The notes beneath the pieces are model-generated. The model made no database searches and was not told the DNA's origin. It worked only from the letters and a program-made list of their open reading frames with translations. This document shows, in pieces, positions 23,901-64,000 of a stretch of 64,000 nucleotides of DNA (positions are counted from its first letter, which is position 1; every line of letters starts with the position of its first letter). The position numbers and the translations under genes were made by a program. Location of the stretch: positions 49,341 to 113,340 of the IMG/VR virus record IMGVR_UViG_3300033073_001635; one strand, 5' to 3'. This DNA comes from a virus (taxonomy: Duplodnaviria > Caudoviricetes).

Positions 23901-24596
23901 AGTGATAGTTACATTTCCACCATTATTAGTTCTTCGAGAGCTAGTAGATATTAAATGTGCAACACTAGAATTTTTTTGATGTAAACTAACATATTTTTCT
24001 TCGAGCGTTTTATTACTTCTAATTGAATCTAAAAAACCTGCTATATCTGCTTTGTCAGCATCACTCATTCTAGAAGAATCTTCAATTGCACCTCGAACCT
24101 TTGTTATTAATTTAGCTTTAGCTTCTTCATCTAAAGCTAAATCAGGATCATTAACCATATCTAATATAACTGATAAATGACTAATTCTTTGATTTTCTTT
24201 TGCAGCTAAAATTTCATCTAATTTTGATCGAGCATCTACAGTAGCCATTTCATCAAATAAATTAAGTGTAACTTCTTTTGCTTTCTCTTTTGCTAAAGCA
24301 TTTCTAGCTTGATAATCACTAATTGATCTATCTCTAATAGCTTTACCAATTTTTCTAGTAGGTAATGCAGTGTCTTCCTTTATCCCACTAGAATTCATAA
24401 AATTAGTTAAATTTCTAACACCAGGAATAGGGTTCTTCATATTAGGATTATCATTTGCAAATCCTAAGTAACCTGCACCTAAAACAAAAGAAGCACCACC
24501 AATAGTTTTTAAAACATCAAAACTATTTCTTGCAAAAGCTCTACGTTCTTCTGTGTCTTTTTTATAAACATTATAAATTAAACTTGGATTTGTCAT
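14928..24596 (-). CDS. Putative single-chain two-barrel (DPBB) RNA polymerase, probably virion-associated
   Basis: Catalytic GDFDGD (D2780-D2784, nt 16245-16259), FRNPQL RxP motif (R1354), beta-like lysine pair GKIFSEAVKG (K757/K764); located in the tail operon. Confidence 0.7.
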   Translation of the reverse strand: MTNPSLIYNVYKKDTEERRAFARNSFDVLKTIGGASFVLGAGYLGFANDNPNMKNPIPGVRNLTNFMNSSGIKEDTALPTRKIGKAIRDRSISDYQARNALAKEKAKEVTLNLFDEMATVDARSKLDEILAAKENQRISHLSVILDMVNDPDLALDEEAKAKLITKVRGAIEDSSRMSDADKADIAGFLDSIRSNKTLEEKYVSLHQKNSSVAHLISTSSRRTNNGGNVTITNPFETFSAQKNVNTIYHKQNLTASSLQDDQLWSIFKGKSNEVKNTVLNRFNIISDHLRLGNNNPNFKVSFDIIKEANEDAYGVYARISSTHNRSSKQPLIIPLMAAEGTHGRYVRLSSDYGNAKVAHNHYFDAADFAEVSKGANLAEKQKIARNIFAKKMPKSSFEDFAINLLKTYSPEDIHYMNQAERNSFMEVLSGLTQYYPTHGQMNFGYAGIQQKHGIQIMSNTAYFFNRGKTGGQFPVDLNELVSLNIGIFGPAQGQAGTIRKELKSTSFEQQAVILDPNAILGRQNVSNPAVIPYNIARTHGIKDQSLLPGSARIAQLFAKPEAMLGYFPANTKFETFEDMQRGMQSLSFGRTGSIKTSATKGADLLVVGKEFQNLDLVGANTGVIIDFNSNAKKGQRLGLADAMQYRGGMHLVSEPLQKSFQYTKGMTNLSIYESDVFQKILAGEEVNLFGSELETFFKNYGDKDGNLVLGFKDNMPTLIKKQKGMMGLKLKMNTNVNTERTGMFSIAGEVYGSHEGKIFSEAVKGVFFGEEQILDEGGMKNVLAQALYKKDPVTGKFINREAAMQEASRFFENTYMKTFGGKIESTMLAGMDVVTKGPQFLSSLLYGSLKMLGYADDFIESNVFNMQGKIEAAEMDTKVKQHAPKYQKIVAENIIETFSNLIADNAELPTASGATAQQVTPEVLGNLLIPAYHNLKEPATEPGKKAVAFKDQLKGLLANTRLTAEQQKVVFETAERGFFIGAMSTFAGTQSTINKDRMARVEPRFANFVMGNLMGMFQMNEDEAAEYMAELFSKQSGVAEKAQAMTPLLLMGQSLHPSMDAGALKHSIDDFVGQGYLFRADEEFTKKFLRANVDIDSATALSNFLKEQQELNPQAMGFVMDIQQMFLRGVEGNENINTAAYQSFLKQIGETKTEIVVPLSNVLDVVSGVEIKSNQKDLKIESELYRKVNDIFAFLREASTSTEEVDQTNKVNQAMYHVKQLQHMLGGMQRQILAGRMSGSATLEGKGVRLGDPEKDQITRFVSDDLDNAKILQKMNAAFIESNGYNMFLDTQAFMYASKTFNAQDPTEKRELYKKFLFGMEEDVLQISDGTMRIVNSLENGSFKPQGISGINFRNPQLGMSHIALNIDMYKYIGENLPESHYSDVLNYNTKGQIFLSSLSEFMGNNSAFRDKIIQNGGEDVINYIDQSIQSAADSGNNFSFLNFKTLNVLNQLNKTGIFKDLSFDFQKTTMEYLTNKRNKIESNVSNLNERIFNLQTAYQRNVKGIENTLNSNLISSYENLQERIAKARFFSNQKQQKQERLAGNIQQKQDFIQTLRQQRSEMFKGNFSYTRINKDTNVEESVDRVGKGFLNYYKQKSSNIKDIKNDRNRRLQAGRLLGKDSRYAYNSLNPNMILDSTGTSFENVGDQIKRTDALDRYYRGYGYDNTYEEAIIKNYREIDLQSHRLKLLLTQSKRSKSNLEKLNKQRDFQKVIINSFGGHEEEILSQIEVLHQSGKNKGKPMLDKFGKPVYKTQTEKFLNLTIIHPDFPITNKEILETFGSHEFYNRTKIEEFNKVFESMKDTMQSDEANAFFKNKKARLNLFDFLYEMNNSDLSFEERTQLENKGLGRARVAKRFIPFIDSLDDDAQKVFYEHDGSDFLKDSEGNKIRKIITFDRESKTVTRNGKERTYSGFNYIKYNIENIDENGNLIDYADPNDPNKTIVKYISDKNKQVSVNSKTVYTYLENYIQQLSSDPTEHSDLNDNPIYKAFFKIFNYKKMNEKASSINKEIKTLQEAYAHFGYSPALAEDVIQKGLNRFLNDSKLYRESLKENLNLKRPISPTEINSQAISDIFALQDFGLQQNRTLGVDTDQLDLLELPRFLHEVKDDFAELLFTSDYLRRDVSNNFTAMTYDENGKLIPFSKLHKQEKKKAIESLFSFVKTLMEDPDVPTTNHFHATSMLFDLLENLKEGKYQDQITNTSNSEAKIQEFTLKKQFVESMIQGKTKGANNFVNSMLYYAQSIIPKMLIREEQEIYQARKDFLQSFFSDEYDYHVVDDEGKFVRNITDSDEDKALIKAFQDNLKQNPDQTTFGKISATRLMKPFEELDDDQKEFYKNHLENKVEEALGEKQKKALSKVKIIKGYELGPDGKPDKTKPTYHDESKQYSTLEELDEDISKYEAEERTKYKVGRINKNAQLIKEEEEKLATLQEKAKEARREKFNIDSSIDELENNGLSRKTSANFYYEELASDFDEYDTDGNIIKKGELKNLAIDTEGNVILDSEGKPTYVNALDDMGMPITSRQPETFLGKSDIILGLEAFTEEEEINLTKYNQETGESEIVYKTNYDPETGTHIPTDEPERITVKKVNKDLLKNFIRAHNYFTEMDELIYDDFYHEEDEAYYVEHDDVRTKQEQLLEKVKNNEDNLLQKLDDFEQGDSQRLLYKPILRSPRNMDLTTLEQNEKIEKLQGFIEEENVKISEIDNKIANIDLTEEKQYHSLDDIINEAVDLYDQNYTRATGLGAGRAVYPEFETTFKFENTKDPSNTFDIKVRTDISRAAVGDFDGDIYQIILNNEKTSNAFKGQIQRNIREMQKTGAMMVVNMEIAKKAMSKVAERMDVANITYQDLLKSESSKERILKAGTGSVDVAVKKVAVGAAYNLAKGNMNLNDFRKTDLAAQLLISASQESVVIKSKSLDLATNIGELFTKTLNTAFETGDTTDFENFMRGTVFKDTDFLNDLIVKNVSVENMPEPLASAYTEGLNKERITFNLDDIFEGLRNIIKTVKANNLSPYASDNMLGALMSAGKNKRFTNEDYLKLVRNFDVLEAAVGSQGLSTPEQQALFENLLGNRQSNVLNMIGDNIANLSNMKMTAATAAVVGASYLLSSSYDTEELRPEEIFTDTRVNEKIKNRELAQVQNYNSDVSMSPDSMQRPFYKDMVGRVQSPGSTMLARNQSYLIKGNVRNIEEANYMNKIALQNGGSSSIMINDNRRPLTGGYLDQLMGE

Positions 24597-24599
24597 TTA

Positions 24600-27500
24600 T
24601 CAGTATCCACTTCTATAAGAATTAATGAATGCATTTATTTCATTTTGTCTATCATCGTTATACATCAATTGTGTTCTATTTTGAAAATCACTTGTTGTAT
24701 TTACAGTAAAATTACTATTTAATCTTTCATATGGGTTTGCATATCTTAACAAACTATCAACCATACCTCTATTTGAAAAAGACTCTTCATACATAAATTC
24801 ATGTGCTTTATTTAAAGCATGATGTCTTTTTACACGTCTAGCTTGAGAATCCCAAAGATCATAATCTCTCATTTCGTCCCCTAAAGAAGCAACATAATTT
24901 ACTTTTATATCATTTATATCTACTTCTTTATTCCAACCAACCCAATCAGGTTCAGGCATAGGATATTCTCCCATATCTAAGTTAGAATATTGTTCTTGTA
25001 GATATCGCTCATCATATCTTGGTTTTTCTTCAATCAAAGAAGTAGGATCTATACCTGCATCAAGATTACTCCATAATCCTTGATACAAGTGCTGTTGATC
25101 TTCTGGAATCATTTCCAAAATTCTATCTCGCTCAGATCCTTGTGCATTTGCAAATGCATCAAAAAATTTCTTTTCTTCACTAGGCAAAGACATATAGATA
25201 CTTAAAGGATCACCATAGGGATTTACACCAGCTCTAGTTTTGGCTGCTTGTGCTAACATTTGTTTCTTCTCATACATGCTGCCAGCCTGTTGAGAAAGAT
25301 TCATGAATTTGTAAAAATTCAATTGATCATATTGTTTAGACAGTGCTTCTCTATTTTCAACATATCCTGGCTTACCTTCCCAGCCTAAAGCATTCAATCC
25401 TGAATAAAATGCGGGTCTAACCCAATCTCTAATTGGTTTATCCCAAAAAGCTAATTGAGTACCATACAACCTTTCATACTCATATTGATCAATTGCATCT
25501 CTCTCTCCACCAAGTAATTTTTGTGCAGGTCTAAAACCAAAAGGAACAACAGATTCAACAGGTTGTGCTATCGTTCTAATACCTTCTTTTAATTGATAAT
25601 AACCTGCTTGAGTTACATCTGATAAAACAGGTATTTTTATTTGATTCTCGTAACCTTTAAATTCTTGCATGCCTAATACTTTAGCATGAGATTCCGCAAC
25701 CATATCCATTAAATTGTTTTCAAATTCACTAGTGATTCCAGCAGCTCTTCTTTCATAAAGTTGATTTCTTAATTTAACAACTTCTCTAGAAGTAGGGTCT
25801 ACATCTGCTAATATTTTATATTTAAATACATCAGGATAATCTTCTGGTTCAAATCCTTCTAGTACTGGAAATACAGCTTCAAAACCTTCACCAGGTAATC
25901 TAGCATAGGCATTTTGTATTTTTGTATATGGGTCGCCTCTTCTAAATTTATCAGGCATCCATGATGGCATAGTATTACTGATTGGATTATATTGTTCTAT
26001 TTCTTTTTTTGGTCTTGGATACAAACGTCTAAGTGCTTCAGACATAAACATCATACCCCCAAGATCTTTGTCCCAAAAAGCCGCAATTGAAGAATCTATT
26101 TGATTAGCACTAGCTAATACAGGATAATCTGTTCCATATATTTCTCTTCCGGTAACTGCTTTCTGAACCATATTTTTAACCCAACCAGTTAAACCTTCAA
26201 GTTCTCTAAATTGATATTGAATTTTACCAGGAAGTAATTTTCCTTCATAAGGTGAAATTGGTGGACCATTTGGTGTAGTACCACCAATTTCTCTTGTAGT
26301 ACCAACTTCAGGAGGATAATAATATTCTAATTCATTATTATCATTTACACGCATATATTCATTAGCATGCATTATCTTTGCTGGTTTTATTAAACGACCA
26401 ATAGTATGAGCCAGAATGGGTCCAAGAATAGGAACATTTTCAAAAGCAACACCAGTAATAGGATAAGGTCTATCATAAAAATGTTTTTCTTCTAAATGAT
26501 AAGTAAAGTTTTTTAAGAACCATTTAGATATAGGATTGTATTGTTCGTCTTCTTCTCCCCAAATAGATTTTTCTTCTGCTCTAGTCATTAATAAATGATA
26601 TGCATGTGGTCTTGAATATAAGACATCAGAACCTTCATAAGGCAAGCCACCACCTTCCCAGAATCTACCCTTTCTAACATCAACAAATTTATTACCACTA
26701 TATATCTCTTTTAATTCCCCTGGATTTTCCATTGTACCTAAAAGACTACCTGTCATTACTGAATGTAATAAGAAACCCCCAGCAAAAACAGTACCTAGTC
26801 TTCTAAAAAATGGAGTGTAATCAATTGATCTTGCAAGAGTATCAAATTCATCACCTTGCATAGTTGCACCTTGCATTGCATGATAAAACTCAGTAGCAAA
26901 TATCTCCATTCTTTCCATAATAGGTGCAAAAAGACTTTTACTGTTTAAATATGAAGCTTTAATACTTTCAACTCTATTCAATAAAGAGTAGTTCAAAAAA
27001 TTCTTAGTATTTTGTCTATCGTATACTCTTGTTTTTATTAAATTATGGATTTCATTATCAAAATCTAGTCTTCTGGATCTTGCTGTAATATCATCTTCGT
27101 TATTAAAAAATTCTTCAGTAATTATTTTAAAAAAATTATTTAAAAGGTTACTTTTACCAGTAGTTTCCATATTAACTGAAGAATATTCACCTACTCTACT
27201 ATTTAAAATATCAAAGTATCTTTTAAATACTGGAGATGTTCTTAATAAATTTTGTTTATTTGCTTTTAATGTTTCTAGTTCTTTATTTAAAGTTTCAATT
27301 TTACTTGCATCAGTAGGATTTACTTTAGAAATTACTTCATTTAAATTTTTAATTTGAGAATTTAAATTTTTAAAATTAGATTGTAAATCACTTAAACCTT
27401 CTATTTTATCTTGGTTTTGAAAAAATGTACCAAATATAGGATTGTACTTTTCAAATATTTCTGATTCAGTTTCGTAAAATAATTCTTTCAAAAGATTAAA

Positions 27501-29084
27501 ATGTTCAGTCTTTTTATCTGCACCAAGTATCAACCCCTTTTTATTTCGATACATATCTATCATGTTTCCAGTTGTTAAATCTGGAACTTGCATAAAACCA
27601 TATCTATTTAAAAATTTTTTAGGTAGTAAAGGTTTTGATTTTTCATCTAATAATCTATCTCTAAGGATATTAGAGTATGCTAACCCAACAGTAGCCAAAC
27701 CTACACCAATACCAATTGATGGATCAGTAAATCCTGGAAGTAATCCTTCAATACCTCTTCTATAAAAACTCATACCAGTAGCTAATCCAAGATAACTTCT
27801 ACCAACGTCTAAAGATGTAAACATAGTAGCTATACCTGGTACCAAACCTTCACTAAAGCCAGGTAACATTTGCATACCAAATGCAGCAATACCAATTTGT
27901 AAAGGTTTAAATTTTCTGGTTGCTGCTTCAGTCACAGAACCATACAAATGACTAGCTCCATAAGCTAAAGCACTACTTATAATTAAATGACTTGGAGTAT
28001 CAAATTTTCTTCTATAATGATCTATTGTTTCCAACCCTAAATAAGCTGCAGATAAAGCAGTAGCTTTAGCACCTAAAGAAAAAAATTGTTTATATGCTGG
28101 GCCAGGTGTAGTTCTTAAATTCAAATGTAATTTATCAGCAACCTTACCAACAAAATCTCCAAGTACAGGCACTTGATCAGCAGTAGCAGATAAAAGCCTA
28201 TTGAATCTGTTAAAACCAAAATTTAAATAAGAAGTTAAATATGCAGTGCGTCTTTTTAAATCAGGTATACTTTCTAATGAACCTCCAATTGATGGAATTA
28301 AAGAAAATTTAGCTGCACTCTTAATATTTCCATGTGCGTCTACTTCTGAAAATATCTTATTGAGTGCGCCTTCTTTTTGTGGAAGTTTACTTGGTATTTC
28401 TAAACTTTGTTGCACAGCTACATTTGCTGGATTTGGTTTTTGTTCAATATCAGCTGAAGTTAAAATATCATAAGCGTCTGCATTATAACCTCTAAACATC
28501 AACATAACTTCATCAGAAACTAACTCTTGATGTATTAATTCTTTTTGTGCATTAAAAGAACGTAAAAATAATTTACCCCTACCAGTATTGTCTAATTCTT
28601 GTTCGTATCGAAGTTCATGATTAATATCAACTGTTGGAATATCTATTTTATTTGCAATTTTTTGATAAGCTTTTTCTCCTAGAATTTCTTTTAAAGCAAC
28701 TTTCGTTTCGTTATTATCAAAATGTTTTTGTTGAAAAGTGTATTGACCAATTTGTTTTTTATTAGATGCATCTACACTGCGTTCTACACCTAAACCTAAA
28801 CCTTTAGGTGACATATATGGTGACATAAACTCTGGAATACGGAAAGTATTAAGTACGCCAAAAGTAAAAGGCAAAGTATTAAGTGTATTGCGCAATTGTT
28901 TTTGAACTAAATCATACGCAGTGTTTTTACCTTGAGCTAAATTGTATTGCGAAAGTTTTTTTGCTCCAAAATAACCAGCTACATAAACTGAATTTTCTAC
29001 TAAAAATTCAAATAAGAAACTATTTTCTGGAGGCGTACCTTCAGCGGTAAAGTAACCTCTACCACGACCTTCTGCTTGTTGCAT
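24600..29084 (-). CDS. Probable tape measure / ejected virion protein
   Basis: 1494 aa, directly after the tail chaperone genes; several Gly/Ala-rich hydrophobic helices and a coiled-coil segment. Confidence 0.5.
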   Translation of the reverse strand: MQQAEGRGRGYFTAEGTPPENSFLFEFLVENSVYVAGYFGAKKLSQYNLAQGKNTAYDLVQKQLRNTLNTLPFTFGVLNTFRIPEFMSPYMSPKGLGLGVERSVDASNKKQIGQYTFQQKHFDNNETKVALKEILGEKAYQKIANKIDIPTVDINHELRYEQELDNTGRGKLFLRSFNAQKELIHQELVSDEVMLMFRGYNADAYDILTSADIEQKPNPANVAVQQSLEIPSKLPQKEGALNKIFSEVDAHGNIKSAAKFSLIPSIGGSLESIPDLKRRTAYLTSYLNFGFNRFNRLLSATADQVPVLGDFVGKVADKLHLNLRTTPGPAYKQFFSLGAKATALSAAYLGLETIDHYRRKFDTPSHLIISSALAYGASHLYGSVTEAATRKFKPLQIGIAAFGMQMLPGFSEGLVPGIATMFTSLDVGRSYLGLATGMSFYRRGIEGLLPGFTDPSIGIGVGLATVGLAYSNILRDRLLDEKSKPLLPKKFLNRYGFMQVPDLTTGNMIDMYRNKKGLILGADKKTEHFNLLKELFYETESEIFEKYNPIFGTFFQNQDKIEGLSDLQSNFKNLNSQIKNLNEVISKVNPTDASKIETLNKELETLKANKQNLLRTSPVFKRYFDILNSRVGEYSSVNMETTGKSNLLNNFFKIITEEFFNNEDDITARSRRLDFDNEIHNLIKTRVYDRQNTKNFLNYSLLNRVESIKASYLNSKSLFAPIMERMEIFATEFYHAMQGATMQGDEFDTLARSIDYTPFFRRLGTVFAGGFLLHSVMTGSLLGTMENPGELKEIYSGNKFVDVRKGRFWEGGGLPYEGSDVLYSRPHAYHLLMTRAEEKSIWGEEDEQYNPISKWFLKNFTYHLEEKHFYDRPYPITGVAFENVPILGPILAHTIGRLIKPAKIMHANEYMRVNDNNELEYYYPPEVGTTREIGGTTPNGPPISPYEGKLLPGKIQYQFRELEGLTGWVKNMVQKAVTGREIYGTDYPVLASANQIDSSIAAFWDKDLGGMMFMSEALRRLYPRPKKEIEQYNPISNTMPSWMPDKFRRGDPYTKIQNAYARLPGEGFEAVFPVLEGFEPEDYPDVFKYKILADVDPTSREVVKLRNQLYERRAAGITSEFENNLMDMVAESHAKVLGMQEFKGYENQIKIPVLSDVTQAGYYQLKEGIRTIAQPVESVVPFGFRPAQKLLGGERDAIDQYEYERLYGTQLAFWDKPIRDWVRPAFYSGLNALGWEGKPGYVENREALSKQYDQLNFYKFMNLSQQAGSMYEKKQMLAQAAKTRAGVNPYGDPLSIYMSLPSEEKKFFDAFANAQGSERDRILEMIPEDQQHLYQGLWSNLDAGIDPTSLIEEKPRYDERYLQEQYSNLDMGEYPMPEPDWVGWNKEVDINDIKVNYVASLGDEMRDYDLWDSQARRVKRHHALNKAHEFMYEESFSNRGMVDSLLRYANPYERLNSNFTVNTTSDFQNRTQLMYNDDRQNEINAFINSYRSGY

Positions 29085-55506: not shown

Positions 55507-58500
55507 TTACATCCTAGTGTGATTTTGTTTTAAGTGAATTAAAGCTTTATGTTGAGCATTTTGCATATTGTTAAATCTTCTAGCTCTAATTGCTTTATTA
55601 GTTGTTTGATTTGTTATTTTTGTAATTTCAGAATTATTGCTTGTTGTTTGTACAGTTTCTATTAAATCAATATTATTCTGTAACATTTGTCCAGAATATT
55701 TAAGTTTATTTTCAACATCTTTACTACCTTTAGTTTCTATTAAACGTTTTAAATCATATTGTAAACTAGGCATATGTTCATTATGTCTAGCCATTTTTCT
55801 ATGTTGATCAAAATCTGCATCAAAAGGTCTAATATTCTTTTTTTGAGAATATTTCTTTTTTAAATCTTCTGAAATTAAAACACTAGGTTCAATAGAAACT
55901 TGCCTAGTATTATTCTTAATTTCATTAAAAGTTTGATCCATTTCTTCTCTATGAAAGTCAGATATTCTACCTTGTTTTTGCGCACTTAACATAATACCTA
56001 ATATATTAGTTAAATTTGCGTTTTCAGCACTTTTAGTTTTATTTGCAAAAGTATTAAAAGTAACAGTTTGTTGAGTTTGTTTATTCATTTCATTATATAC
56101 TTGAAAAAATGGTTCACTCCACATACCTCGACGTTGTTCTACTGCATATTTTTGAGCGGCACTAAAAGCTTTTTCATTGTACATTTGCTCTTGACCTTTA
56201 CCTTCATAAGGTAAGTAAGCAACCGCACCTCTCTTTAATAATTCTAAATTTAAATTTCTGTCTCCAGCAAATAAAGTAGCAACTTGACGTCCATAAGTAA
56301 TATTTGTTGGATCAAATACTAAAGACAATTCTTTTCCTTGCATTAAAGATTTCAACATTTCTTTTGAAATCTCAGCATGTGGCTGTGCTGCTCTTTCATC
56401 ATGTGAAGTTTCAGGAGCATCAATACCAGCCAAACGAAATGAATAATTACCGCTACCCATAAACTTAGAAAGAGGATTATCTGTAACGCCCTTTCTTTGT
56501 AATGTAATAGTATCGGCGTCTTCTACTGAGATATGAAAATCATCTTTGTTTATTACTAAACGCTTTAAATTATTACCTTTTAAACTTAATAATTGTTCTT
56601 GAGTTAATCCTTGATTAGGGCTAGCAAATTCTCTAAATATCTCTCTCATTTCAGGTTTGTAAGCTACGTGACTTCTTAAAAGATTAAATATATCTCCTCT
56701 TTCAGTAAAATGTCTTTCGTTAAACATATAAGAAGAATATTTTTGGCGTTCTCTTATTAATTCTTGATCTTCAAAAACACTATATGATGTTGCAGGACCT
56801 TGATAAGGAGAACCGAAATCTGTATTTACTTTACGCATTAAAGATGCTAAACCATTTTCAGCCAAACCATCATTTTCTGCAAAATATTTATCTTTAATTG
56901 CAGTTTTAAAATTACTTTCAGATCCAAAAAATTTCTTTTGATTTTCAAACCATCTATCATAACTAGGAGAAAGATTAGATGTTTCACTTGCCTTTGTTAA
57001 AGGTGAATCTTGAACTAAACTTAATGTAGCTAAAGCAGCTGCACCAACACCATACATACCAAAAAATTTTAAGCCTGCAGGAGAACTAGCAAATTCTGTA
57101 AATACTTTATTTAAACCATTATCAAAATTTTGTTCAATAATAGTATTTGCAATATTATCTAACTCGGAAACACTTAAACCAGCAGGTAATGCTTTTATAT
57201 TGCTAGCTGCAGTTTCTAATGCAACTGCACTAGGTTGCAAGAATGGTTTAGATTGTATATTCTCTGGTACTTTTCTATCAAAAACATAATTCTTTATTTC
57301 TTTTTCAGTATATAAAGGCACAGCACCTTTATCGTTTTTTGGCATATTAAAAGATTCTTCTAATCTAAAATTCAAATCAGCATATCTTTTAGCTTGTTCA
57401 TTTAAATCTACTGAAGCATCATGCGCAGGATCCGTATAAGTAGCACCATAAGAAGTTTTTATTTCACCATAATCTATATAATTTCTAAAACCAGACTTAT
57501 AATCTCCTAAAGTTTTTTGGTTATAAACAGGCACTTTATTTAAATCTTGTTCAAATTTTAAATTCGTATCGCCTAAATCAATTTGTCTTTGAGCAGATTG
57601 TTCAATTACTTTTTTTGTTAACTCTCCATAATTTGAAGCTCTTGATGTTACATATTGTTTTGAATCCATTACTTGACCAGTGGTTTCGTAATGTTTTATC
57701 TCAAAAAAAGCTCTTCCAAAAGCAGCTTCTCTATTTGTTTCAGGCGGAGTAATAAAAATTTTTTCATTTTTTTGTGCAACTAATGGTTCTCCTGCAAGAA
57801 ATTTTTCTTTAGCTAAATTAATTTCCGCTTCAGAATAACCACTAGTAGTTTTCTGATAACCAGGTTCAGCAACAAATGCATGATGTTGTATTTCATTAAT
57901 CATCGCTTCAACAGGTATTGGTTTTGATCTAGATTGTAATAAACTAGCTGTATGTTTGTGTTCTGTAGCTTTTTTAATTACATCTCTGATTTTCTCAGTA
58001 GTCTTTACTTCATGCGGTTTTTTAAATTTTTCTAAATTTAATTGAGGTAATTTTTTTGGAGTTCTTGATGTTAAAGACAAATCTACTCTATTTGTAAAGT
58101 CAGAAGATATAAACCTTTCAGATAATGATTCAAATCCTTTTATTAAATCGTGTACTTTATTACCTCTAGTACTTAAAAAATTCTTTAGATCTGCACGTTT
58201 TTTTATTGCAGTTTCACTTTGTTTTCTACTATCTAATAGATCAGAATCAAATTCATAAGATTCACCGGTATGATAAATAAAATTTCTCTCTAGTAATTCT
58301 TGTTCTAAAGTTTCTATTTCTTTAGCTCTACCTGAGTAATTATATAAATTGTTTTGAATTAAACTCTTTTTAAAAGAATTATAAGAAGCAATTATCTTTC
58401 TATTATAAGATGGTGTCTTTATTTTTTCAGTAACAATAGTATCTGAATACAAGCTTTTTAATTGTTGAACATTCTCTTCTGGAACTCCTTGATTCCTTAA

Positions 58501-60357
58501 AACTTGTTCTGCGCTTTGAATATGTTGTTGTTCTCTATATAAAGGTGTTTCAGTTAATTGAGAAGCTGAAATTTGTGCGGTATCTGCAATTTCTCCTAAA
58601 TCTGAAACAATTCTAGATTGTAAATTAATTTCTTGAATCTTAGGTACAATCTCTTCAAAAATTTTAGAATATGTAGCCGCTCTATATAAAGGGTCTGTTC
58701 TTTTTAAATTTTTTATATGTGCTATTTTTTCTTCTTCTGACATTTTAGAAAAACGTGACAAAGCTTCTGCTTGCACTACTGATTCTCTTAATACTATATT
58801 TTCATGTATTAAAGTATCCAAACCTGCAGTGTGAGTTTCTTTAAAACTAGAAAGTATTTCTTTTAATTCTGCTTCTGGAGCGTTTTCACTTAAAGCATTT
58901 GTAAACATATACAAACGAGATTGTGCTTCAATTGAAAGCCCTAAAGGAGACGAGACGTTTGAAAGTAAACCTTCTTTAACCAACATAGATTGTTGGGATC
59001 TAATTACATCTTGAATATCTCTTGCACTGCCTGGTTTTGTAGTTTGAAAAAATACATCAGAAACATTGCTATAATCACCATGTACTCTTGCTTCTGCTAG
59101 AGCAGCATTATACTCAATGCCAGTAGAGTAAAAAGGTTCACCAGTAGAAGCAGATGCAGGGATTCCTGCAATAGTCATAAATGGATTATTTTTTATAAAT
59201 GCACGACTTCTTAAATCTGCAATTTGACGTTTAGTTAAAGAAACGTTATCTGGGATTGCATTTTCTTTTCTATAAGCTTCCTCTGCAAGAATCATTTCCT
59301 CTCTTGCTTCAGAAGCAATTTGTGAACCAAATTTTTTCGCTTCAAATTTAATATTAGCAACATAAAGAGCTTTGTTTTTCATTAGCTGTGCTAATTGTTG
59401 TTGCATTTGTTTCATTGAAACATTGGTATGCACATTTATTTTAACATCTTTTGTTAAACCGGAAATTCTTTGACTAGAATATTTAAATTTAGAAAAGTAA
59501 TCTTGCATCAAAGCATTAAAAGTACTTGAATCGTATTGCATATTTCTAGTACGCATATACCTTAAATACTCTGCTTCAGCAGGATTTGAAGTTAAAAATT
59601 TATTAAAACTTTCAGAACCTTCCAATATATATCTTGAAAGAAACGGTTCATCTCTCTCAAACGCAGCATGCAACCCAACTTCTTTTAATAATCTAGTATC
59701 TTCTAATTGAGGATTTAAAGCATCGTTTTCTATTAACAAAGTTTCTGCTTTTAAAATTTCATTAGCAGCGCTAGAATCCTTATCAAAATTTTTTACTTTA
59801 ATTAATTTCTTTTCTAAAGATTCTATTTGATTCTGTAATACAGTATCTAAATTATTAAAATAGGTAGCATTTCTTTTTAAATTTTTTATATTTTCAAGTA
59901 TTTCATTGTAACTATTCTTATTCATTAAATAGTCAACAATAGCAATATCTCTAAAAGACATCTGCTTTACTAAATCAGGATGCATGCCTTTCAATACATT
60001 TACTTGATTCAACTTAGAAGAGGAAACCATATTGGCATTAGTATCTTCTAATTTTCTAATTAAATTAGCTTCCGGAATAAATATATTTAATTCATTTTGC
60101 TCTAAATTGAATAAAGCAACTTCATGCATAGATTCAGTTTTTAAACCTAGAGTTTCAATATCTAAAATCGCTGCATTTTTTAAAATATCTTTAGAATCAG
60201 TAAAAGGTAAAGACTTAGTATCTAAGGTACTAGTTGCTACTTGCTGTTCTCTTTTTTGAATTTGAAAAATAAAACTTTCTGATTCAGAAAAAGCAAGACT
60301 TGATTTAGAAGTATCTAAGGGTTTGTAAGTAGTTCTGAGATATTTTTGCTGTGTCAT
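55507..60357 (-). CDS. Large protein with N-terminal DEDDh 3'-5' exonuclease and C-terminal SNase (thermonuclease) domains
   Basis: ExoI ILDIETLG (D66), ExoII-like ANIKFE, ExoIII HTAGLD (H509/D514); SNase EDADT (D1280), RLAGIDAPE, YGRQVA, LNLELLKRG, RRGMWS. Confidence 0.75.
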   Translation of the reverse strand: MTQQKYLRTTYKPLDTSKSSLAFSESESFIFQIQKREQQVATSTLDTKSLPFTDSKDILKNAAILDIETLGLKTESMHEVALFNLEQNELNIFIPEANLIRKLEDTNANMVSSSKLNQVNVLKGMHPDLVKQMSFRDIAIVDYLMNKNSYNEILENIKNLKRNATYFNNLDTVLQNQIESLEKKLIKVKNFDKDSSAANEILKAETLLIENDALNPQLEDTRLLKEVGLHAAFERDEPFLSRYILEGSESFNKFLTSNPAEAEYLRYMRTRNMQYDSSTFNALMQDYFSKFKYSSQRISGLTKDVKINVHTNVSMKQMQQQLAQLMKNKALYVANIKFEAKKFGSQIASEAREEMILAEEAYRKENAIPDNVSLTKRQIADLRSRAFIKNNPFMTIAGIPASASTGEPFYSTGIEYNAALAEARVHGDYSNVSDVFFQTTKPGSARDIQDVIRSQQSMLVKEGLLSNVSSPLGLSIEAQSRLYMFTNALSENAPEAELKEILSSFKETHTAGLDTLIHENIVLRESVVQAEALSRFSKMSEEEKIAHIKNLKRTDPLYRAATYSKIFEEIVPKIQEINLQSRIVSDLGEIADTAQISASQLTETPLYREQQHIQSAEQVLRNQGVPEENVQQLKSLYSDTIVTEKIKTPSYNRKIIASYNSFKKSLIQNNLYNYSGRAKEIETLEQELLERNFIYHTGESYEFDSDLLDSRKQSETAIKKRADLKNFLSTRGNKVHDLIKGFESLSERFISSDFTNRVDLSLTSRTPKKLPQLNLEKFKKPHEVKTTEKIRDVIKKATEHKHTASLLQSRSKPIPVEAMINEIQHHAFVAEPGYQKTTSGYSEAEINLAKEKFLAGEPLVAQKNEKIFITPPETNREAAFGRAFFEIKHYETTGQVMDSKQYVTSRASNYGELTKKVIEQSAQRQIDLGDTNLKFEQDLNKVPVYNQKTLGDYKSGFRNYIDYGEIKTSYGATYTDPAHDASVDLNEQAKRYADLNFRLEESFNMPKNDKGAVPLYTEKEIKNYVFDRKVPENIQSKPFLQPSAVALETAASNIKALPAGLSVSELDNIANTIIEQNFDNGLNKVFTEFASSPAGLKFFGMYGVGAAALATLSLVQDSPLTKASETSNLSPSYDRWFENQKKFFGSESNFKTAIKDKYFAENDGLAENGLASLMRKVNTDFGSPYQGPATSYSVFEDQELIRERQKYSSYMFNERHFTERGDIFNLLRSHVAYKPEMREIFREFASPNQGLTQEQLLSLKGNNLKRLVINKDDFHISVEDADTITLQRKGVTDNPLSKFMGSGNYSFRLAGIDAPETSHDERAAQPHAEISKEMLKSLMQGKELSLVFDPTNITYGRQVATLFAGDRNLNLELLKRGAVAYLPYEGKGQEQMYNEKAFSAAQKYAVEQRRGMWSEPFFQVYNEMNKQTQQTVTFNTFANKTKSAENANLTNILGIMLSAQKQGRISDFHREEMDQTFNEIKNNTRQVSIEPSVLISEDLKKKYSQKKNIRPFDADFDQHRKMARHNEHMPSLQYDLKRLIETKGSKDVENKLKYSGQMLQNNIDLIETVQTTSNNSEITKITNQTTNKAIRARRFNNMQNAQHKALIHLKQNHTRM

Positions 60358-61091: not shown

Positions 61092-61173
61092 AAAATTTCC
61101 TTATAGGCGATTTTTTTTGGTTAATTATTTTTTTAGAATACTGCTTTTTTCAGAATTAATAAAGCGAAAAATA

Positions 61174-61299
61174 CAGACCACCCCGGTCTACTATTAGTAA
61201 TTTTAAATATAGTGTCGATTGGGGGGAGGTAATATATATATTGCGCCAGAACTTTTCATTCTTTTTCAGCCCACCCCGGTGCTAGGTACATGTCGTACC
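61174..61299. promoter_or_regulatory. GC-rich repeated/hairpin motifs in divergent intergenic region
   Basis: CAG(A/C)CCACCCCGGT at 61174-61187 and 61267-61280; hairpins AGACC-ACCCC-GGTCT and GGTAC-ATGTC-GTACC; G6 run at 61221-61226. Confidence 0.45.
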
Positions 61300-61341
61300 A
61301 AGAAGAGTTGCAATCACCTGTACACAGAAAGGATTTCATAA

Positions 61342-62310
61342 ATGTACACTTTTTTCCTCAATTTTCTAAGTTGCTTTGTATTCTCCGAAAAAGAAGCAAA
61401 CCTAGGAAGTCTAGGCTATGTCCTAGGTCGTTTAACCATACCAATTCTCTTGCTTCACGTAAGCATCGAATGTGGTTCGTACTATTGTGTACCCCTTAAT
61501 GGTTTCCTTGGAATTATTGTTTTAGGTTGTCAAACCAGTAATCTACCAATCTTCTATGTTGCTGCAACTGAACGCTTTGAAGTGGAAGCGGCAAAAAGCA
61601 TAGATAAGCTGACATCTCTAATCATTATGATTCAAACAGTGCTCACCCTTGTAATTCTTTCAGGTACTTATCAAGATCCCAACTTGGTAGTAGTAGCTCC
61701 TGATGAAATTAATGCCTTCTCTAAAAGCGCTTTCTTCCATGAGAAAGTGTTAAGTAAAGAAGAGCTGATTTCTTACTGGAAAGAAAAAGAAGGTGCACTT
61801 GATGTTTCTAAGGAAATCTCTGAAGATTTCCTTAAACAACAGCATGATCTCAGAGTGTTCTTTTTAAAGAATCCTCAAGTTTGTATTGTAGGTGTTCCTG
61901 AACCCTATATGGGAGCTTTTGAAGCTACCAGAGGGTTAACTAGGCTTTTGTGGTCAGTACCACAAGCTTGGTATCATGAAAGAATGCACAGTTGCAAAAT
62001 TGGTTTATCTTTTTCCCATGGAGATAATGATCATATTAAAGTTCTCTCTTCCAAGAGGGCTTCAAAGGGTCATGATTCTGCCAGATGGATAGCTGCAGAA
62101 GACATGAAAAAAGCTTTTTCTCAGATAGATCTTGTGTTTATCACCTGTAGAGGTGATAGAGAACCTTTCTATGAAGGGGATTTTATCCTAGATCATCAAA
62201 CTGCAATTTGGTGGTCTACGGAAAAAGGCAGATCAACATCTGCTGATTGGCTATGGCATGTATACAATAACGGCAATTTGCAAAAATTTGTAGATATGTA
62301 TCGTTATTAA
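61342..62310 (+). CDS. Hypothetical membrane protein, 322 aa
   Basis: SD AAAGGA; several N-terminal hydrophobic segments and a soluble C-terminal domain. Confidence 0.65.
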   Translation: MYTFFLNFLSCFVFSEKEANLGSLGYVLGRLTIPILLLHVSIECGSYYCVPLNGFLGIIVLGCQTSNLPIFYVAATERFEVEAAKSIDKLTSLIIMIQTVLTLVILSGTYQDPNLVVVAPDEINAFSKSAFFHEKVLSKEELISYWKEKEGALDVSKEISEDFLKQQHDLRVFFLKNPQVCIVGVPEPYMGAFEATRGLTRLLWSVPQAWYHERMHSCKIGLSFSHGDNDHIKVLSSKRASKGHDSARWIAAEDMKKAFSQIDLVFITCRGDREPFYEGDFILDHQTAIWWSTEKGRSTSADWLWHVYNNGNLQKFVDMYRY

Positions 62311-62335
62311 ACTCTTTACAACAACCCTTAACAGG

Positions 62336-62387
62336 GAGGTCCACAGGTAGTGCCCTGTGCTGATGATGGCTTAGAAGCCGAAACCTC
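62336..62387 (+). ncRNA. Type III hammerhead ribozyme, copy 1 (cleavage after C62341)
   Basis: GAGGUC / stem I CACAGG-UAGUGC-CCUGUG / CUGAUGA / U / stem II GGCU-UAGA-AGCC / GAAA / CCUC closing stem III. Confidence 0.93.
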
Positions 62388-62422
62388 AGAAAACAAAACC
62401 CAAAACAAAAAGGAAGTCCCAT

Positions 62423-62632
62423 ATGGCTACTCTCAACTATAAAGACAGACATGGCAACAAAATGAGCGTATTGAACGTTCCAGTCGAAGTTGCGCAATCA
62501 TTAATTCTTAACAAAAAGCAATTCAACAAAATTAACCGATCTTGGTTAAGAAACGAAGAAGCAAATGTGGTATTTGATTGTTGCTGTTCCGAAAAAGTAG
62601 ATTACTTAATTTGGAGTCGTTTCTCTAAGTAA
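62423..62632 (+). CDS. 69-aa hypothetical protein between two hammerheads
   Basis: SD AAAGGA after an unstructured A/C-rich leader; the ORF fills the inter-ribozyme space. Confidence 0.7.
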   Translation: MATLNYKDRHGNKMSVLNVPVEVAQSLILNKKQFNKINRSWLRNEEANVVFDCCCSEKVDYLIWSRFSK

Positions 62633-62659
62633 TCGATTAACAAAAAAACCTTTTAAAAG

Positions 62660-62711
62660 GAGGTCCATGCGTAGTGCCGCATGCTGATGATGGCTTAGAA
62701 GCCGAAACCTC
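62660..62711 (+). ncRNA. Type III hammerhead ribozyme, copy 2 (cleavage after C62665)
   Basis: GAGGUC / stem I CAUGCG-UAGUGC-CGCAUG / CUGAUGA / U / GGCU-UAGA-AGCC / GAAA / CCUC; three compensatory pair changes relative to copy 1. Confidence 0.93.
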
Positions 62712-62772
62712 AGAACACACACTTGTAAGAGTCTTTAAGTTTAAAGACTTTAAATAAATAAACTTATCTCAA

Positions 62773-63384
62773 ATGTTAAAATCAATTATTTTCAGTTTAA
62801 TTTTCAGTATTTTATGTTTTGTAGTTTTAGACTACAAAACGCTGGTTTTCTTAAACAATGTTGTCATTCTATTGGTGCCAATATATGGAGCACCAATGTT
62901 TGTTGGTAAACCTGAGAAATGTAAAGACCCAATTATCATCTTATTTTTAATGGTATTTGCTTTCTCATTTTGTATTAGCCCAATCAAAATGATGTCTTCT
63001 CAAGAGAAACAACAATTACCTTGTAAAGGGTATATTGATCCTGAATTGGAAAGTAAATTCAACTATTTGCCAGAATATTCTCACAAATGCACCAGTGTGT
63101 TTCATGCTGGTCATGGAAGAATTGTAAATGGAGTACATCTACTCAGTTACAAAGATGTAGAATATTCTACAAGAGATATGATCGACCAATACAAACAAAA
63201 GAAGCAATATGTCTTTTCTTGTAGAGGAAAACAAAATCCAATATTGGATTTGATGAAACTGAATATCTCGTTTTTGTTTCAAGACAAAAACATTGAAGAG
63301 CAAGATGATAAAGAGATTATTTGGTTTGCCAAAGAAGGCACATTATTAGTGTCACTAATAAGTGTATGGGTCGATTTTAATTAA
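62773..63384 (+). CDS. Hypothetical membrane protein, 203 aa
   Basis: Two to three N-terminal hydrophobic helices. Confidence 0.65.
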   Translation: MLKSIIFSLIFSILCFVVLDYKTLVFLNNVVILLVPIYGAPMFVGKPEKCKDPIIILFLMVFAFSFCISPIKMMSSQEKQQLPCKGYIDPELESKFNYLPEYSHKCTSVFHAGHGRIVNGVHLLSYKDVEYSTRDMIDQYKQKKQYVFSCRGKQNPILDLMKLNISFLFQDKNIEEQDDKEIIWFAKEGTLLVSLISVWVDFN

Positions 63385-63436
63385 CACATGTAACCGTCTA
63401 GCTTAAAGACATTAAAGAAAAGCAAAGGATGAAATC

Positions 63437-64000
63437 ATGGATGTTTTGTTTATGAAAAAAGTTTCTGCTATTGATTTAATTGATAGCGTTGAGAAAGCAA
63501 AGAGTGTCACTTCTCAGCCTTGTACATCTCAGGGGATGTTTAGGGAAGTTTGGGTGGGTAATTATGGAGTATTGAAGAAAGGCAAAGATGTACCTGGAGG
63601 AGGTTTTGATATCTCTCTTGGGGGAGGAGAGATGAATAGGAGGGAATTTGAAGTGTGGACAAAGTATAACCATCTTGGTCTTTTGGCAAAAATCAATTGG
63701 GTCTCTCCTGATAATTTATATTTGTCCATGGAAAAGTTGAATATGAACGAAGGCTTGAAAAACAAAGCAATTAAAGATCTATTCTTTGATTTTTGGGTAG
63801 ACCAAAATGACGACAGAGAATCTGCTATCAATTGTTTAAACAGGGTGAAACTAGTGTTGTGGGCTTTATTAAAAGCTAACAACGAAAGAAAGTTGGCAAC
63901 TTATTTGATTAAATTGAATGGCTTTGATGGGTTGATGAACCCAGGAAAAGTCGATTTAAATAGGGAAATCTATGGGAAGTTATTACAACTTCCCAAAGAT
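63437..64000 (+). CDS. Partial ORF, protein kinase-like N-lobe
   Basis: Read manually: SD AAAGGA, ATG 63437, frame open to the window end; SQGMFREVW, VLKK, NRREFEVW, LLAKI..YLSMEK. Confidence 0.55.
   Translation, partial: MDVLFMKKVSAIDLIDSVEKAKSVTSQPCTSQGMFREVWVGNYGVLKKGKDVPGGGFDISLGGGEMNRREFEVWTKYNHLGLLAKINWVSPDNLYLSMEKLNMNEGLKNKAIKDLFFDFWVDQNDDRESAINCLNRVKLVLWALLKANNERKLATYLIKLNGFDGLMNPGKVDLNREIYGKLLQLPKD

What the first reader, a model, noticed from the sequence alone, without database searches (positions are those of the whole stretch)
62336..62711. Two intact type III hammerhead ribozymes with compensatory covariation
Seen: the 52-nt copies are identical except in stem I, where CACAGG/CCUGUG becomes CAUGCG/CGCAUG. 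All six differences preserve three base pairs. The core CUGAUGA, GAAA, GUC cleavage triplet and both loops (UAGUGC, UAGA) are unchanged. Known: this is the hammerhead consensus, and loop I-loop II contacts give fast in vivo cleavage. The covariation indicates selection on structure in both copies. Both are intergenic and on the coding strand.
Basis: partly seen in the sequence, partly recalled or inferred. Interest (0 to 1): 0.9.

Follow-up and report, generated by a model that had tools for sequence, protein, structure and literature searches.

The report
Hammerhead ribozymes punctuating phage gene cassettes
Two genuine self-cutting hammerhead RNAs sit between small genes of a large uncultured freshwater phage; this kind of arrangement was described in 2011, and relatives of this phage show it densely, with up to six ribozymes marking the borders of shuffled gene cassettes.

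Summary
Window 62336-62387 and 62660-62711 (+) are two 52-nt type III hammerhead motifs. They are identical except for six bases that keep three stem I pairs. Both lie in intergenic spacers on the coding strand.

They carry the full core, a GUC cleavage triplet and one extra U between A9 and G10.1. Rfam misses them, and that inserted U is the likely reason: a near-identical relative without it scores 39.4 bits.

Nine related freshwater metagenome loci and a 158-kb related contig carry 2-6 hammerheads each, nearly one per intergenic spacer. Across 25 distinct sequences, 12 of 15 pairs show compensatory changes. The core is invariant except at N7. H17 is never G.

The genes between the ribozymes are ORFans whose order differs between relatives. 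Assembly contigs break inside the ribozymes, or switch there to other ribozyme variants.

The best reading is co-transcriptional cleavage of a polycistronic RNA into single-gene messages. Cleavage itself is untested, because no RNA data were available.

Clustered hammerheads flanking phage genes were described by Perreault et al. (2011), and this scan has noted similar arrays on other DNA. This is a new member of a known kind. The extras worth noting are swapped ribozyme interiors, cassette borders, and an upstream hairpin that re-uses the stem III arm.

The parts
62336..62387 (+). Hammerhead 1 (type III). Stem III 62336-62340 with 62383-62387. C17 = 62341 (cut after it). Stem I 62342-62347 with 62354-62359; loop 1 62348-62353. 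Core CUGAUGA 62360-62366; extra U 62367. Stem II 62368-62371 with 62376-62379; loop 2 62372-62375. GAA 62380-62382.
   Evidence: 70.0 bits with lineage model R1
62660..62711 (+). Hammerhead 2 (type III), same layout. C17 = 62665; core 62684-62690; extra U 62691. Stem I is CAUGCG/CGCAUG.
   Evidence: 69.6 bits with R1
61342..62310 (+). Gene B (322 aa, ORFan), the anchor gene upstream of HH1. Its stop codon lies 25 nt before HH1.
   Evidence: homologues in L126, L132, L140, L142, L161
62423..62632 (+). Gene G (69 aa, ORFan), the cassette flanked by the two hammerheads. It starts 35 nt after HH1 and ends 27 nt before HH2.
   Evidence: homologues in L133 and L136, each between different hammerhead variants
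62773..63384 (+). Gene D (203 aa, ORFan), a cassette absent from relative L126 and from one X4 contig.
   Evidence: (joint 62714->63389)
63437..64000 (+). Gene A (truncated by the contig end). In relatives it is followed by another hammerhead.
62321..62340 (+). Upstream sequence that can pair with the 5' arm of HH1 stem III. After cleavage it would form a 3'-terminal hairpin on the upstream RNA.
   Evidence: prediction only
62648..62664 (+). The same feature for HH2: ACCUUUU-AAA-AGGAGGU, leaving a 1-nt overhang after cleavage.
   Evidence: prediction only
62730..62749 (+). Second recurrent element, the hairpin AGTCTTTAA-GT-TTAAAGACT, preceded by CTTGTAAG and followed by TTAAATAAATAA, 23 nt before the ATG of D. 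A shorter copy lies at 63396-63410 before gene A. Its role is unknown.
61143..61322 (+). Conserved leader or promoter region of the + strand cluster. It is shared with relatives, which place a hammerhead directly after it; the window does not.

Best explanation
The two elements are functional type III hammerhead self-cleaving ribozymes. They belong to a lineage-specific set of hammerheads that occupies almost every intergenic spacer of a same-strand cluster of small ORFan genes, in a group of large freshwater phages.

Inferred mechanism. The cluster is transcribed as one RNA from the leader at about 61140-61320. Each hammerhead folds as it emerges and cuts after C62341 and after C62665. This releases single-gene RNAs. 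Each downstream piece starts with a 5'-OH and the compact ribozyme body (46 nt), then has an unstructured A/C-rich leader with its own Shine-Dalgarno sequence. Each upstream piece ends in GGAGGUC with a 2',3'-cyclic phosphate, and that end can snap back onto upstream sequence to form a terminal hairpin. The likely effect is to uncouple the stability and translation of neighbouring cassettes.

Shown here: motif, topology, conservation, covariation, regular placement, and replacement of one hammerhead variant by another at the same junction. Inferred only: co-transcription, cleavage in vivo, and the effect on mRNA fate.
For: Motif and fold.

Relatives: L126 has hammerheads at the syntenic spacer. 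Loci L129-L142 and the 158-kb contig L161 carry 2-6 each on the coding strand.

Placement: each starts mostly 25-31 nt after a stop codon and ends 24-36 or about 50-64 nt before the next ATG.

Covariation: in alignment A2 of 25 distinct sequences, 91.7% of cells are paired against 30-41% when partners are slid, and 12 of 15 pairs have changes on both sides. The covariation score is 0.548 against 0.233 in shuffles (0 of 500 reach it). RNAalifold independently returns the same junction.

Core: C3, U4, G5, A6, G8, A9, G12-A14 and U16.1 are invariant. N7 is U, A or C. H17 is C, A or U and never G.

Functional replacement: at the junction before gene D, window and L133 differ by 1.9% in D but by 25% inside the hammerhead. 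All 13 differences lie in stems I/II and their loops, and the fold is kept.

The extra U: 40 distinct type III hammerheads from other phage contigs share it. In the CChMVd hammerhead a U at this position raised the trans-cleavage rate 3-4-fold (PMC3705267, citing De la Pena & Flores 2001).

Loops: loop 1 starts with U and loop 2 ends with A, as in the loop-loop motif of PMC2632901.

Precedent: three clustered prophage arrays cleaved in vitro, and one also cleaved in E. coli (PMC3088659).
Against: There is no direct evidence of cleavage or of transcription.

Rfam RF00008 gives no hit at E <= 10 on the window copies.

In their genomic context, the thermodynamic MFE of 130-150 nt prefers an alternative in which the stem III 5' arm pairs upstream and CUGA pairs with the downstream UCAG. 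The active fold may therefore be transient or regulated.

Several lineage members have only 3 bp in stem III.

The many sequences share ancestry, so the shuffle statistics overstate independence.

The biological benefit of processing is unproven for any phage hammerhead (PMC6765202).
Confidence: 0.85

Rival explanations
1. The hammerheads are active, but their main evolutionary significance is as portable joints of a hypervariable cassette array. The near-identical 50-nt ribozymes, and the motif next to them, provide homology for recombination that inserts, deletes and reorders single-gene cassettes, much as repeated promoter stem-loops do in T4-type hyperplastic regions (that comparison is from my own knowledge). 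RNA processing then simply keeps each newly placed cassette expressible.
For: Gene order between anchors B and C/F differs in every relative, with hammerheads at nearly all borders. Relative to L126, the window carries an extra 991-nt block that begins exactly at the 3' end of HH1.

The same hammerhead variant occurs at different junctions, and different variants occur at the same junction.

In public DNA assemblies, contigs end at both ribozymes and word depth rises there. Loose ends switch inside the ribozyme to other variants. One contig joins 62714 to 63389, leaving out gene D.

Some stem III arms are mismatched, as expected for chimeras: GGAGGUC with ACCAG.
Against: Any repeated sequence breaks assemblies and recombines, so this may be a by-product rather than a function. 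It does not explain the strict conservation of the catalytic core. Some breakpoints lie just outside the ribozyme, at the gene's stop codon or at the CTTGTAA motif.
Confidence: 0.4
2. The 324-nt RNA between the two cuts (62342-62665) is circularised, either by the ribozyme's reverse reaction or by an RtcB-type ligase, as happens with viroids and retrozymes. This would give a stable circular mRNA for the 69-aa gene.
For: Both hammerheads have identical stem III arms, so the 3' end of the excised RNA (GAGGUC>p) can pair with ACCUC of its own 5' ribozyme body and bring the ends together. The ends have the right chemistry for RtcB (established knowledge).
Against: Perreault et al. looked for circular or spliced products from clustered prophage hammerheads and found none (PMC3088659). 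In relatives, the arm of one ribozyme often does not match the next one any better than it matches its own partner. The predicted upstream hairpin would compete for the 3' end. No RNA data are available.
Confidence: 0.07
3. The motifs are hammerhead-shaped but not catalytically relevant. They would be inactive relics, or hairpin pairs that serve as protein-binding or terminator-like elements.
For: There is an extra U in the core. Rfam is silent. An alternative fold is favoured in context.
Against: The 11 core positions are invariant in 25 distinct sequences, while the stems change freely with compensation and N7 and H17 vary only as catalysis allows. The extra U is common in phage hammerheads and is tolerated experimentally (PMC3705267). 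Neither hairpin is followed by a U tract.
Confidence: 0.05

Closest known systems
Clustered hammerhead ribozymes flanking single genes or short gene blocks in prophages (Perreault et al. 2011, PMC3088659; e.g. the triple arrays of Agrobacterium tumefaciens, Azorhizobium caulinodans and Clostridium scindens)
   Same: Several hammerheads in one orientation sit between genes of phage origin, and the genes between them are not constant. The proposed role is the same: processing long phage transcripts into single-gene RNAs.
   Different: This is a lytic-type large phage (portal about 36% identical to jumbo myoviruses) rather than a prophage. All copies are type III. The density is higher in relatives (6 in 3.6-4.3 kb, nearly every spacer). 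Cassette shuffling and swapped ribozyme interiors are documented at nucleotide level.
Natural type III hammerheads of viroids and plant satellite RNAs (Rfam RF00008), e.g. sTRSV(+) and cscRNA, with helix I/loop 1 of 6/6-7 and helix II/loop 2 of 4/4 (table in PMC1636495)
   Same: Same topology, core, GUC site and nearly the same helix and loop sizes (6/6, 4/4, stem III 5 bp). Loop 1 has a 5' U and loop 2 a 3' A, as in the common loop-loop motif (PMC2632901).
   Different: It is encoded in double-stranded DNA phage intergenic spacers, not in a circular RNA replicon. It has an extra U after A9. It is below the Rfam threshold.
CChMVd (+) hammerhead with an extra nucleotide between A9 and G10.1 (De la Pena & Flores 2001, as summarised in PMC3705267)
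   Same: An inserted nucleotide at exactly this core position.
   Different: There the natural residue is A and U was an engineered improvement. Here U is the natural residue, and relatives have U, A, G or nothing.
Ribozyme neighbourhoods in bacteria and phages (hammerhead, twister, twister-sister, pistol and hatchet found close together; review PMC6765202)
   Same: Self-cleaving ribozymes concentrated near phage genes, with function still unknown.
   Different: Only hammerheads were found in this genome. A twister-sister next to a hammerhead was seen only in the unrelated locus L020.

Membership tests
Hammerhead ribozyme, type III | Three helices around one junction, with the open end in stem III (order: III-5', cleavage site, hairpin I, core, hairpin II, GAA, III-3') | tested here: met
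   MFE folds, descriptor scan, RNAalifold consensus of 25 relatives
Hammerhead ribozyme, type III | Invariant core C3 U4 G5 A6 N7 G8 A9 and G12 A13 A14 | tested here: met
   CUGAUGA and GAA are present in both copies. They are invariant in A2 except at N7, which is U, A or C. One extra U follows A9, a position where an insertion is known to be tolerated (PMC3705267).
Hammerhead ribozyme, type III | A15.1-U16.1 pair, and a cleavage-site nucleotide H17 that is not G | tested here: met
   GUC in both copies. U16.1-A15.1 is present in 25 of 25. H17 is C, A or U in relatives.
Hammerhead ribozyme, type III | Stems supported by compensatory changes | tested here: met
   12 of 15 pairs change on both sides and 91.7% of cells are paired; slid controls give 30-41%
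Hammerhead ribozyme, type III | Loop 1-loop 2 tertiary contact | tested here: inconclusive
   Loop 1 UAGUGC has the 5' U and loop 2 UAGA the 3' A of the motif in PMC2632901. Loop types co-vary by class in relatives. No structural test was possible.
Hammerhead ribozyme, type III | Score at or above the Rfam RF00008 gathering threshold (48.5 bits) | tested here: not met
   No hit, even at E <= 10. The model also misses all obvious phage hammerheads in 16 other loci at the gathering threshold. In E-value mode it gives 39.4 bits to the near-identical L133 copy without the extra U, and 20-22 bits to extra-U copies from other phages. I read this as a limit of the model, not a failed biological criterion.
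Hammerhead ribozyme, type III | Site-specific Mg2+-dependent self-cleavage giving 5'-OH and 2',3'-cyclic phosphate ends | not testable with these tools
   It needs in vitro transcription or RNA end mapping, which these tools do not provide.
Clustered phage/prophage hammerheads (Perreault 2011) | Two or more hammerheads in the same orientation flanking single genes in phage DNA | tested here: met
   Window: B-HH-G-HH-D-A. Relatives have up to six. The phage nature is shown by capsid and portal hits.
Viroid-like or retrozyme circular RNA units | A unit bounded by hammerheads that accumulates as circular RNA | not testable with these tools
   No RNA data. Perreault et al. report a negative result for prophage arrays (PMC3088659).

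The most novel reading that the evidence does not exclude
In this phage lineage the hammerhead is one part of a standard cassette joint with two built-in properties that I did not find described. (a) The 5' arm of stem III has a second partner just upstream, so that after cleavage the released upstream mRNA is capped by a 3'-terminal hairpin with a cyclic phosphate, while the ribozyme body caps the 5' end of the next mRNA. (b) The repeated joints are the places where single-gene cassettes and ribozyme interiors are exchanged between genomes. Together these would give an integron-like, self-processing variable region of early ORFan genes.
Probability: 0.3. Interest if true: 0.6.

Novelty: new member of a known kind. 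Interest (0 to 1): 0.4.

Why it matters
The biological role of the thousands of bacterial and phage hammerheads is still open (PMC6765202). This lineage offers an unusually clean natural data set for that question:
- one ribozyme per spacer
- at least 25 distinct functional-looking variants
- orthologous junctions that carry different variants
- population data showing cassette gain and loss at the joints

It also shows that standard annotation with Rfam thresholds overlooks this common phage variant, which has an extra U after A9. As a single finding it does not change what is known, because the arrangement and the processing hypothesis date from 2011.

Tried and rejected
- **Rfam cmscan:** run at gathering threshold on the window and on the rest of the genome, and in E-value mode on 62200-62850. 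There was no hammerhead hit. RF00008 through the genome search also gave none.
- **Exact 25-nt search in viral contigs:** none.
- **Model from unrelated phages:** I aligned 38 unrelated phage hammerheads to build an independent covariance model. MAFFT did not keep the 5' halves in register, so I did not build it. The lineage model R1 contains the window copies, so their 70-bit scores are not independent.
- **RNA evidence:** no RNA holder was listed among public runs, so expression and cleavage could not be examined. The runs laid were DNA contigs only.
- **Function of the genes:** Pfam and PHROGs on genes B, G, D, A, C, E, H, I, J, K, L and F gave nothing usable.
- **T7-like promoter idea:** I considered that the conserved AACCCTTAACAGGGAGG before the ribozyme might be a T7/T3-like promoter. 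PF00940 is not found in the contig, and the control genomes did not ring either, so this is uninformative. I dropped it.
- **Small ORF in loop 1:** the SD-like GGAGG with a GTG in loop 1 could start a small ORF (62350-62442). I rejected this because relatives lose the GTG while keeping the RNA pairs.
- **Other ribozyme types:** type I and type II hammerhead scans of the genome found none.
- **Chance pattern matches:** the high-GC pattern matches (L128, L131, L134 and others; L149-L156 except L151) lack the stems and are chance hits.

Full report
**Setting.** The window is the last 64 kb of a 113,340-bp IMG/VR phage contig, estimated 69% complete. GC content is about 29%. The minus strand carries capsid, portal and several giant ORFs. 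The portal is about 36% identical to those of jumbo myoviruses such as Bacillus phage 0305phi8-36. From 61342 to the contig end, a cluster of small genes runs on the + strand. Public runs that hold this DNA are riverine, freshwater or aquatic metagenomes.

**Observation.** At 62336-62387 and 62660-62711 the + strand reads GAGGUC / stem I hairpin / CUGAUGA-U / GGCU-UAGA-AGCC / GAA / ACCUC.
- The two copies differ only in stem I, CACAGG/CCUGUG versus CAUGCG/CGCAUG. That is six differences in three pairs, all compensated.
- Each isolated copy folds into the hammerhead three-way junction as its MFE structure.
- My descriptor scan of the whole contig finds only these two type III motifs, with stems of 6, 4 and 5 bp. 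Shuffled genomes give about 0.35 hits of minimal quality. No type I or II motif exists in the genome.
- Both copies are intergenic and on the coding strand: 25 and 27 nt after a stop codon, and 35 and 61 nt before the next ATG.
- The predicted cuts are after C62341 and C62665, 324 nt apart.

**Why Rfam is silent.** Rfam gives no match at the gathering threshold or at E <= 10.
- The same library at the gathering threshold also misses every obvious hammerhead in 16 other phage loci. It does find a twister-sister there, so the pipeline works.
- In E-value mode RF00008 gives 39.4 bits (E 6.6e-6) to L133:130-184. That copy has the same stem I as HH2 and the same stem II and loop 2, but lacks the extra U.
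- The L133 copy that is identical to HH1, which has the extra U, gets no hit. Extra-U hammerheads of other phages get only 20-22 bits.
- The single inserted U between A9 and G10.1 is therefore the likely reason for the miss.
- This insertion is not exotic. The pattern CUGAUGA-U-GGC...GCC-GAAAC occurs in more than 120 viral contigs, mostly in complete type III or type I hammerheads.
- In the CChMVd (+) hammerhead, a U at exactly this position raised the trans-cleavage rate 3-4-fold (PMC3705267, summarising De la Pena & Flores 2001).
- DNA contigs from other samples include variants of both sites without the U (table 4).

**Relatives.** A protein search with the upstream gene found L126 (62% identity). 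It has a hammerhead in the same spacer and two more downstream. A pattern built on the shared stem III found low-GC metagenome loci L129, L130, L132, L133, L136, L140, L141 and L142. It also found a 158-kb contig binned into a Bacteriovoracaceae MAG (L151/L161).
- Each carries 2-6 type III hammerheads on the coding strand. L136 has six in 3.6 kb and L142 has six in 4.3 kb.
- Placement is regular: mostly 25-31 nt after the stop codon, and 24-36 or about 50-64 nt before the next ATG.

**Conservation and covariation.** Alignment A2 holds 25 distinct sequences.
- C3, U4, G5, A6, G8, A9, G12, A13, A14 and U16.1 are invariant. N7 is U, A or C. H17 is C, A or U and never G.
- For the hammerhead structure, 91.7% of cells are paired, against 30-41% when partners are slid by 1-3 columns.
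- Twelve of 15 pairs show changes on both sides. The covariation score is 0.548 against 0.233 +/- 0.020 in shuffles.
- RNAalifold predicts the same junction on its own.
- A covariance model built from A2 scores the window copies at 70.0 and 69.6 bits. It finds nothing else in the 113-kb contig, and that score is not independent.
- In the 2.8-Mb MAG it hits only the phage-like contig.

**Strongest functional argument.** At the junction in front of gene D, window and L133 differ by 1.9% in the D coding region. Inside the hammerhead they differ by 25%. All 13 differences lie in stems I/II and their loops, while the core, stem III and immediate flanks are identical. One working hammerhead has been replaced by another at the same place. 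This is what selection for self-cleavage predicts, and it also shows exchange among paralogous copies. For this reason I read the six differences between HH1 and HH2 as an exchange of pre-existing variants, not as new compensatory mutations. CAUGCG is the commonest stem I in the lineage, and CACAGG turns up at other junctions.

**Cassettes.** I clustered the ORFs of all loci into letter-named families:

| Locus | Gene order (HH = hammerhead) |
|---|---|
| window | B-HH-G-HH-D-A... |
| L126 | B-HH-A-HH-J-HH-C-F |
| L132 | B-HH-H-HH-A-HH-C-F |
| L140 | B-HH-L-HH-A-HH-C |
| L142 | HH-B-HH-H-HH-E-HH-K-HH-D-A-HH-C |
| L136 | HH-I-HH-E-HH-G-HH-D-A-HH-J-HH-C-F |
| L161 | B-HH-K-HH-A-HH-C-F-x-HH |

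- None of these proteins has a Pfam or PHROG assignment.
- Relative to L126, the window has an extra 991-nt block, 62392-63382 (G, HH2, D), that starts exactly at the 3' end of HH1.
- L133 is 100% identical to window 61190-61322 and then runs straight into a hammerhead and gene G, with no gene B. Other relatives have a hammerhead directly after the conserved leader.
- In DNA assemblies of four other samples, contigs stop at both hammerheads and word depth rises there 3- to 9-fold. Loose ends switch inside the ribozyme to other variants. One contig joins 62714 to 63389, omitting D.
- The window contig ends inside gene A. In all relatives A is followed by another hammerhead, so the real phage almost certainly has more than two.

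**Mechanism.** The best-supported reading is the one proposed in 2011: a long phage transcript is cut into single-gene RNAs (PMC3088659, where three prophage arrays cleaved in vitro and one also cleaved in E. coli).

Two details seen here refine it, as predictions only.
- First, the 5' arm of stem III (GGAGGU) has a second partner just upstream: 62321-62340 for HH1 and 62648-62664 for HH2. In 130-150-nt contexts this alternative even wins thermodynamically, together with a CUGA/UCAG pairing.
- Of the 30 distinct lineage 5' cleavage products, 26 are predicted to end in a hairpin with a 0-2-nt overhang. They are more stable than local background (Mann-Whitney p = 2e-5; the sequences are related, so this is indicative only).
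- The GGAGG arm is conserved even where the 3' arm no longer matches it, which fits a second role.
- In 41 unrelated phage type III hammerheads, the 40 nt before the cut are also more structured than background (mean z -1.0, p = 4e-4).
- I infer that cleavage leaves the upstream mRNA with a hairpin and a cyclic phosphate at its 3' end. The downstream mRNA keeps the ribozyme body and a 5'-OH. Both ends are expected to slow the usual decay routes (established knowledge about 5'-end-dependent RNase E/J and 3' exonucleases; not tested here).
- Second, the alternative fold could make cleavage conditional or irreversible. I cannot tell which.

**Rivals.**
- A recombination-joint role is compatible with the above and fairly likely as a consequence (0.4).
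- Circularisation of the 324-nt unit is chemically possible, because both ribozymes share stem III. However, Perreault et al. looked for such products and found none, and relatives give no extra support (0.07).
- A non-catalytic reading is very unlikely, given the pattern of invariance and variation (0.05).

**Novelty and score.** Clustered hammerheads flanking changing genes in phage DNA are published (PMC3088659; review PMC6765202). This scan has already noted hammerhead-punctuated arrays in many other genomes. The finding is real and well supported, but it is a new member of a known kind. The parts I did not find described are the swapped ribozyme interiors at orthologous joints, the population-level cassette borders, and the dual-use stem III arm. 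They rest on prediction and comparison only. Interest 0.4.

Noticed in passing
window 62730-62749 and 63396-63410; L132:7445-7464; L133:525-544 and 1002-1021; the reverse strand of L142 (3637-3656 counted on that strand): A second recurrent intergenic element: TGTAA(G/C), then a hairpin AGTCYTTAA...RRGACT (or the shorter GTCT...AGAC), then (T/G)TAAATA. It lies 22-26 nt before the ATG of genes D, A, K and E. The stem covaries (AGTCTT/AAGACT versus AGTCC/GGGACT). It could be a promoter, an operator or an RNA element. A shorter CTGTAA(C) motif follows many hammerheads.
   Followed up: partly
window 61143-61322; L133:1-133; L142:4600-4747 (-): A conserved leader upstream of the cluster, containing TTGGGGGGAGGTAATATAT and two CCACCCCGG hairpin-like motifs. 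Relatives place a hammerhead of a distinct type (UGUA cut site, stem I UAUAAGG) directly after it. The window goes straight into gene B. L133 is 100% identical to 61190-61322 but lacks gene B.
   Followed up: partly
41 type III hammerheads in loci L009-L123 (unrelated phage contigs): A stable, often GC-rich hairpin frequently sits within a few nucleotides upstream of the cleavage site (e.g. L020, L034, L035, L044, L045, L059, L110). The mean z-score against local background is -1.0. This suggests a general 'hairpin plus hammerhead' module for forming 3' ends.
   Followed up: partly
L020:4894-4973 (-): A twister-sister ribozyme (Rfam RF02681, 75.6 bits) in an unrelated viral contig that also carries a type III hammerhead.
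   Followed up: no
L151/L161 = G001:C1 (158,217-bp contig binned in an uncultured Bacteriovoracaceae MAG): This looks like a near-complete genome of a related phage. Its size matches the CheckV-implied full length of the window's phage. The binning hints at a Bdellovibrionota host but may be an artefact. It has a fourth hammerhead about 7 kb downstream, after a 1859-aa gene.
   Followed up: partly
window 3308-13711 (-), 14928-24596 (-), 24600-29084 (-), 55507-60357 (-): Giant ORFs of 3467, 3222, 1494 and 1616 aa. The first has an endolysin-like PHROG hit near its C-terminus, and the last has a staphylococcal-nuclease domain. The 3222-aa protein has no family hit. Another note of this scan proposes that it is a virion RNA polymerase; I did not test that.
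   Followed up: no
L065 (three matches about 360 nt apart), L110 (three type III), L117 and L035 (two each): Other unrelated viral contigs also carry tandem arrays of hammerheads with the extra U, at gene-sized spacing.
   Followed up: no
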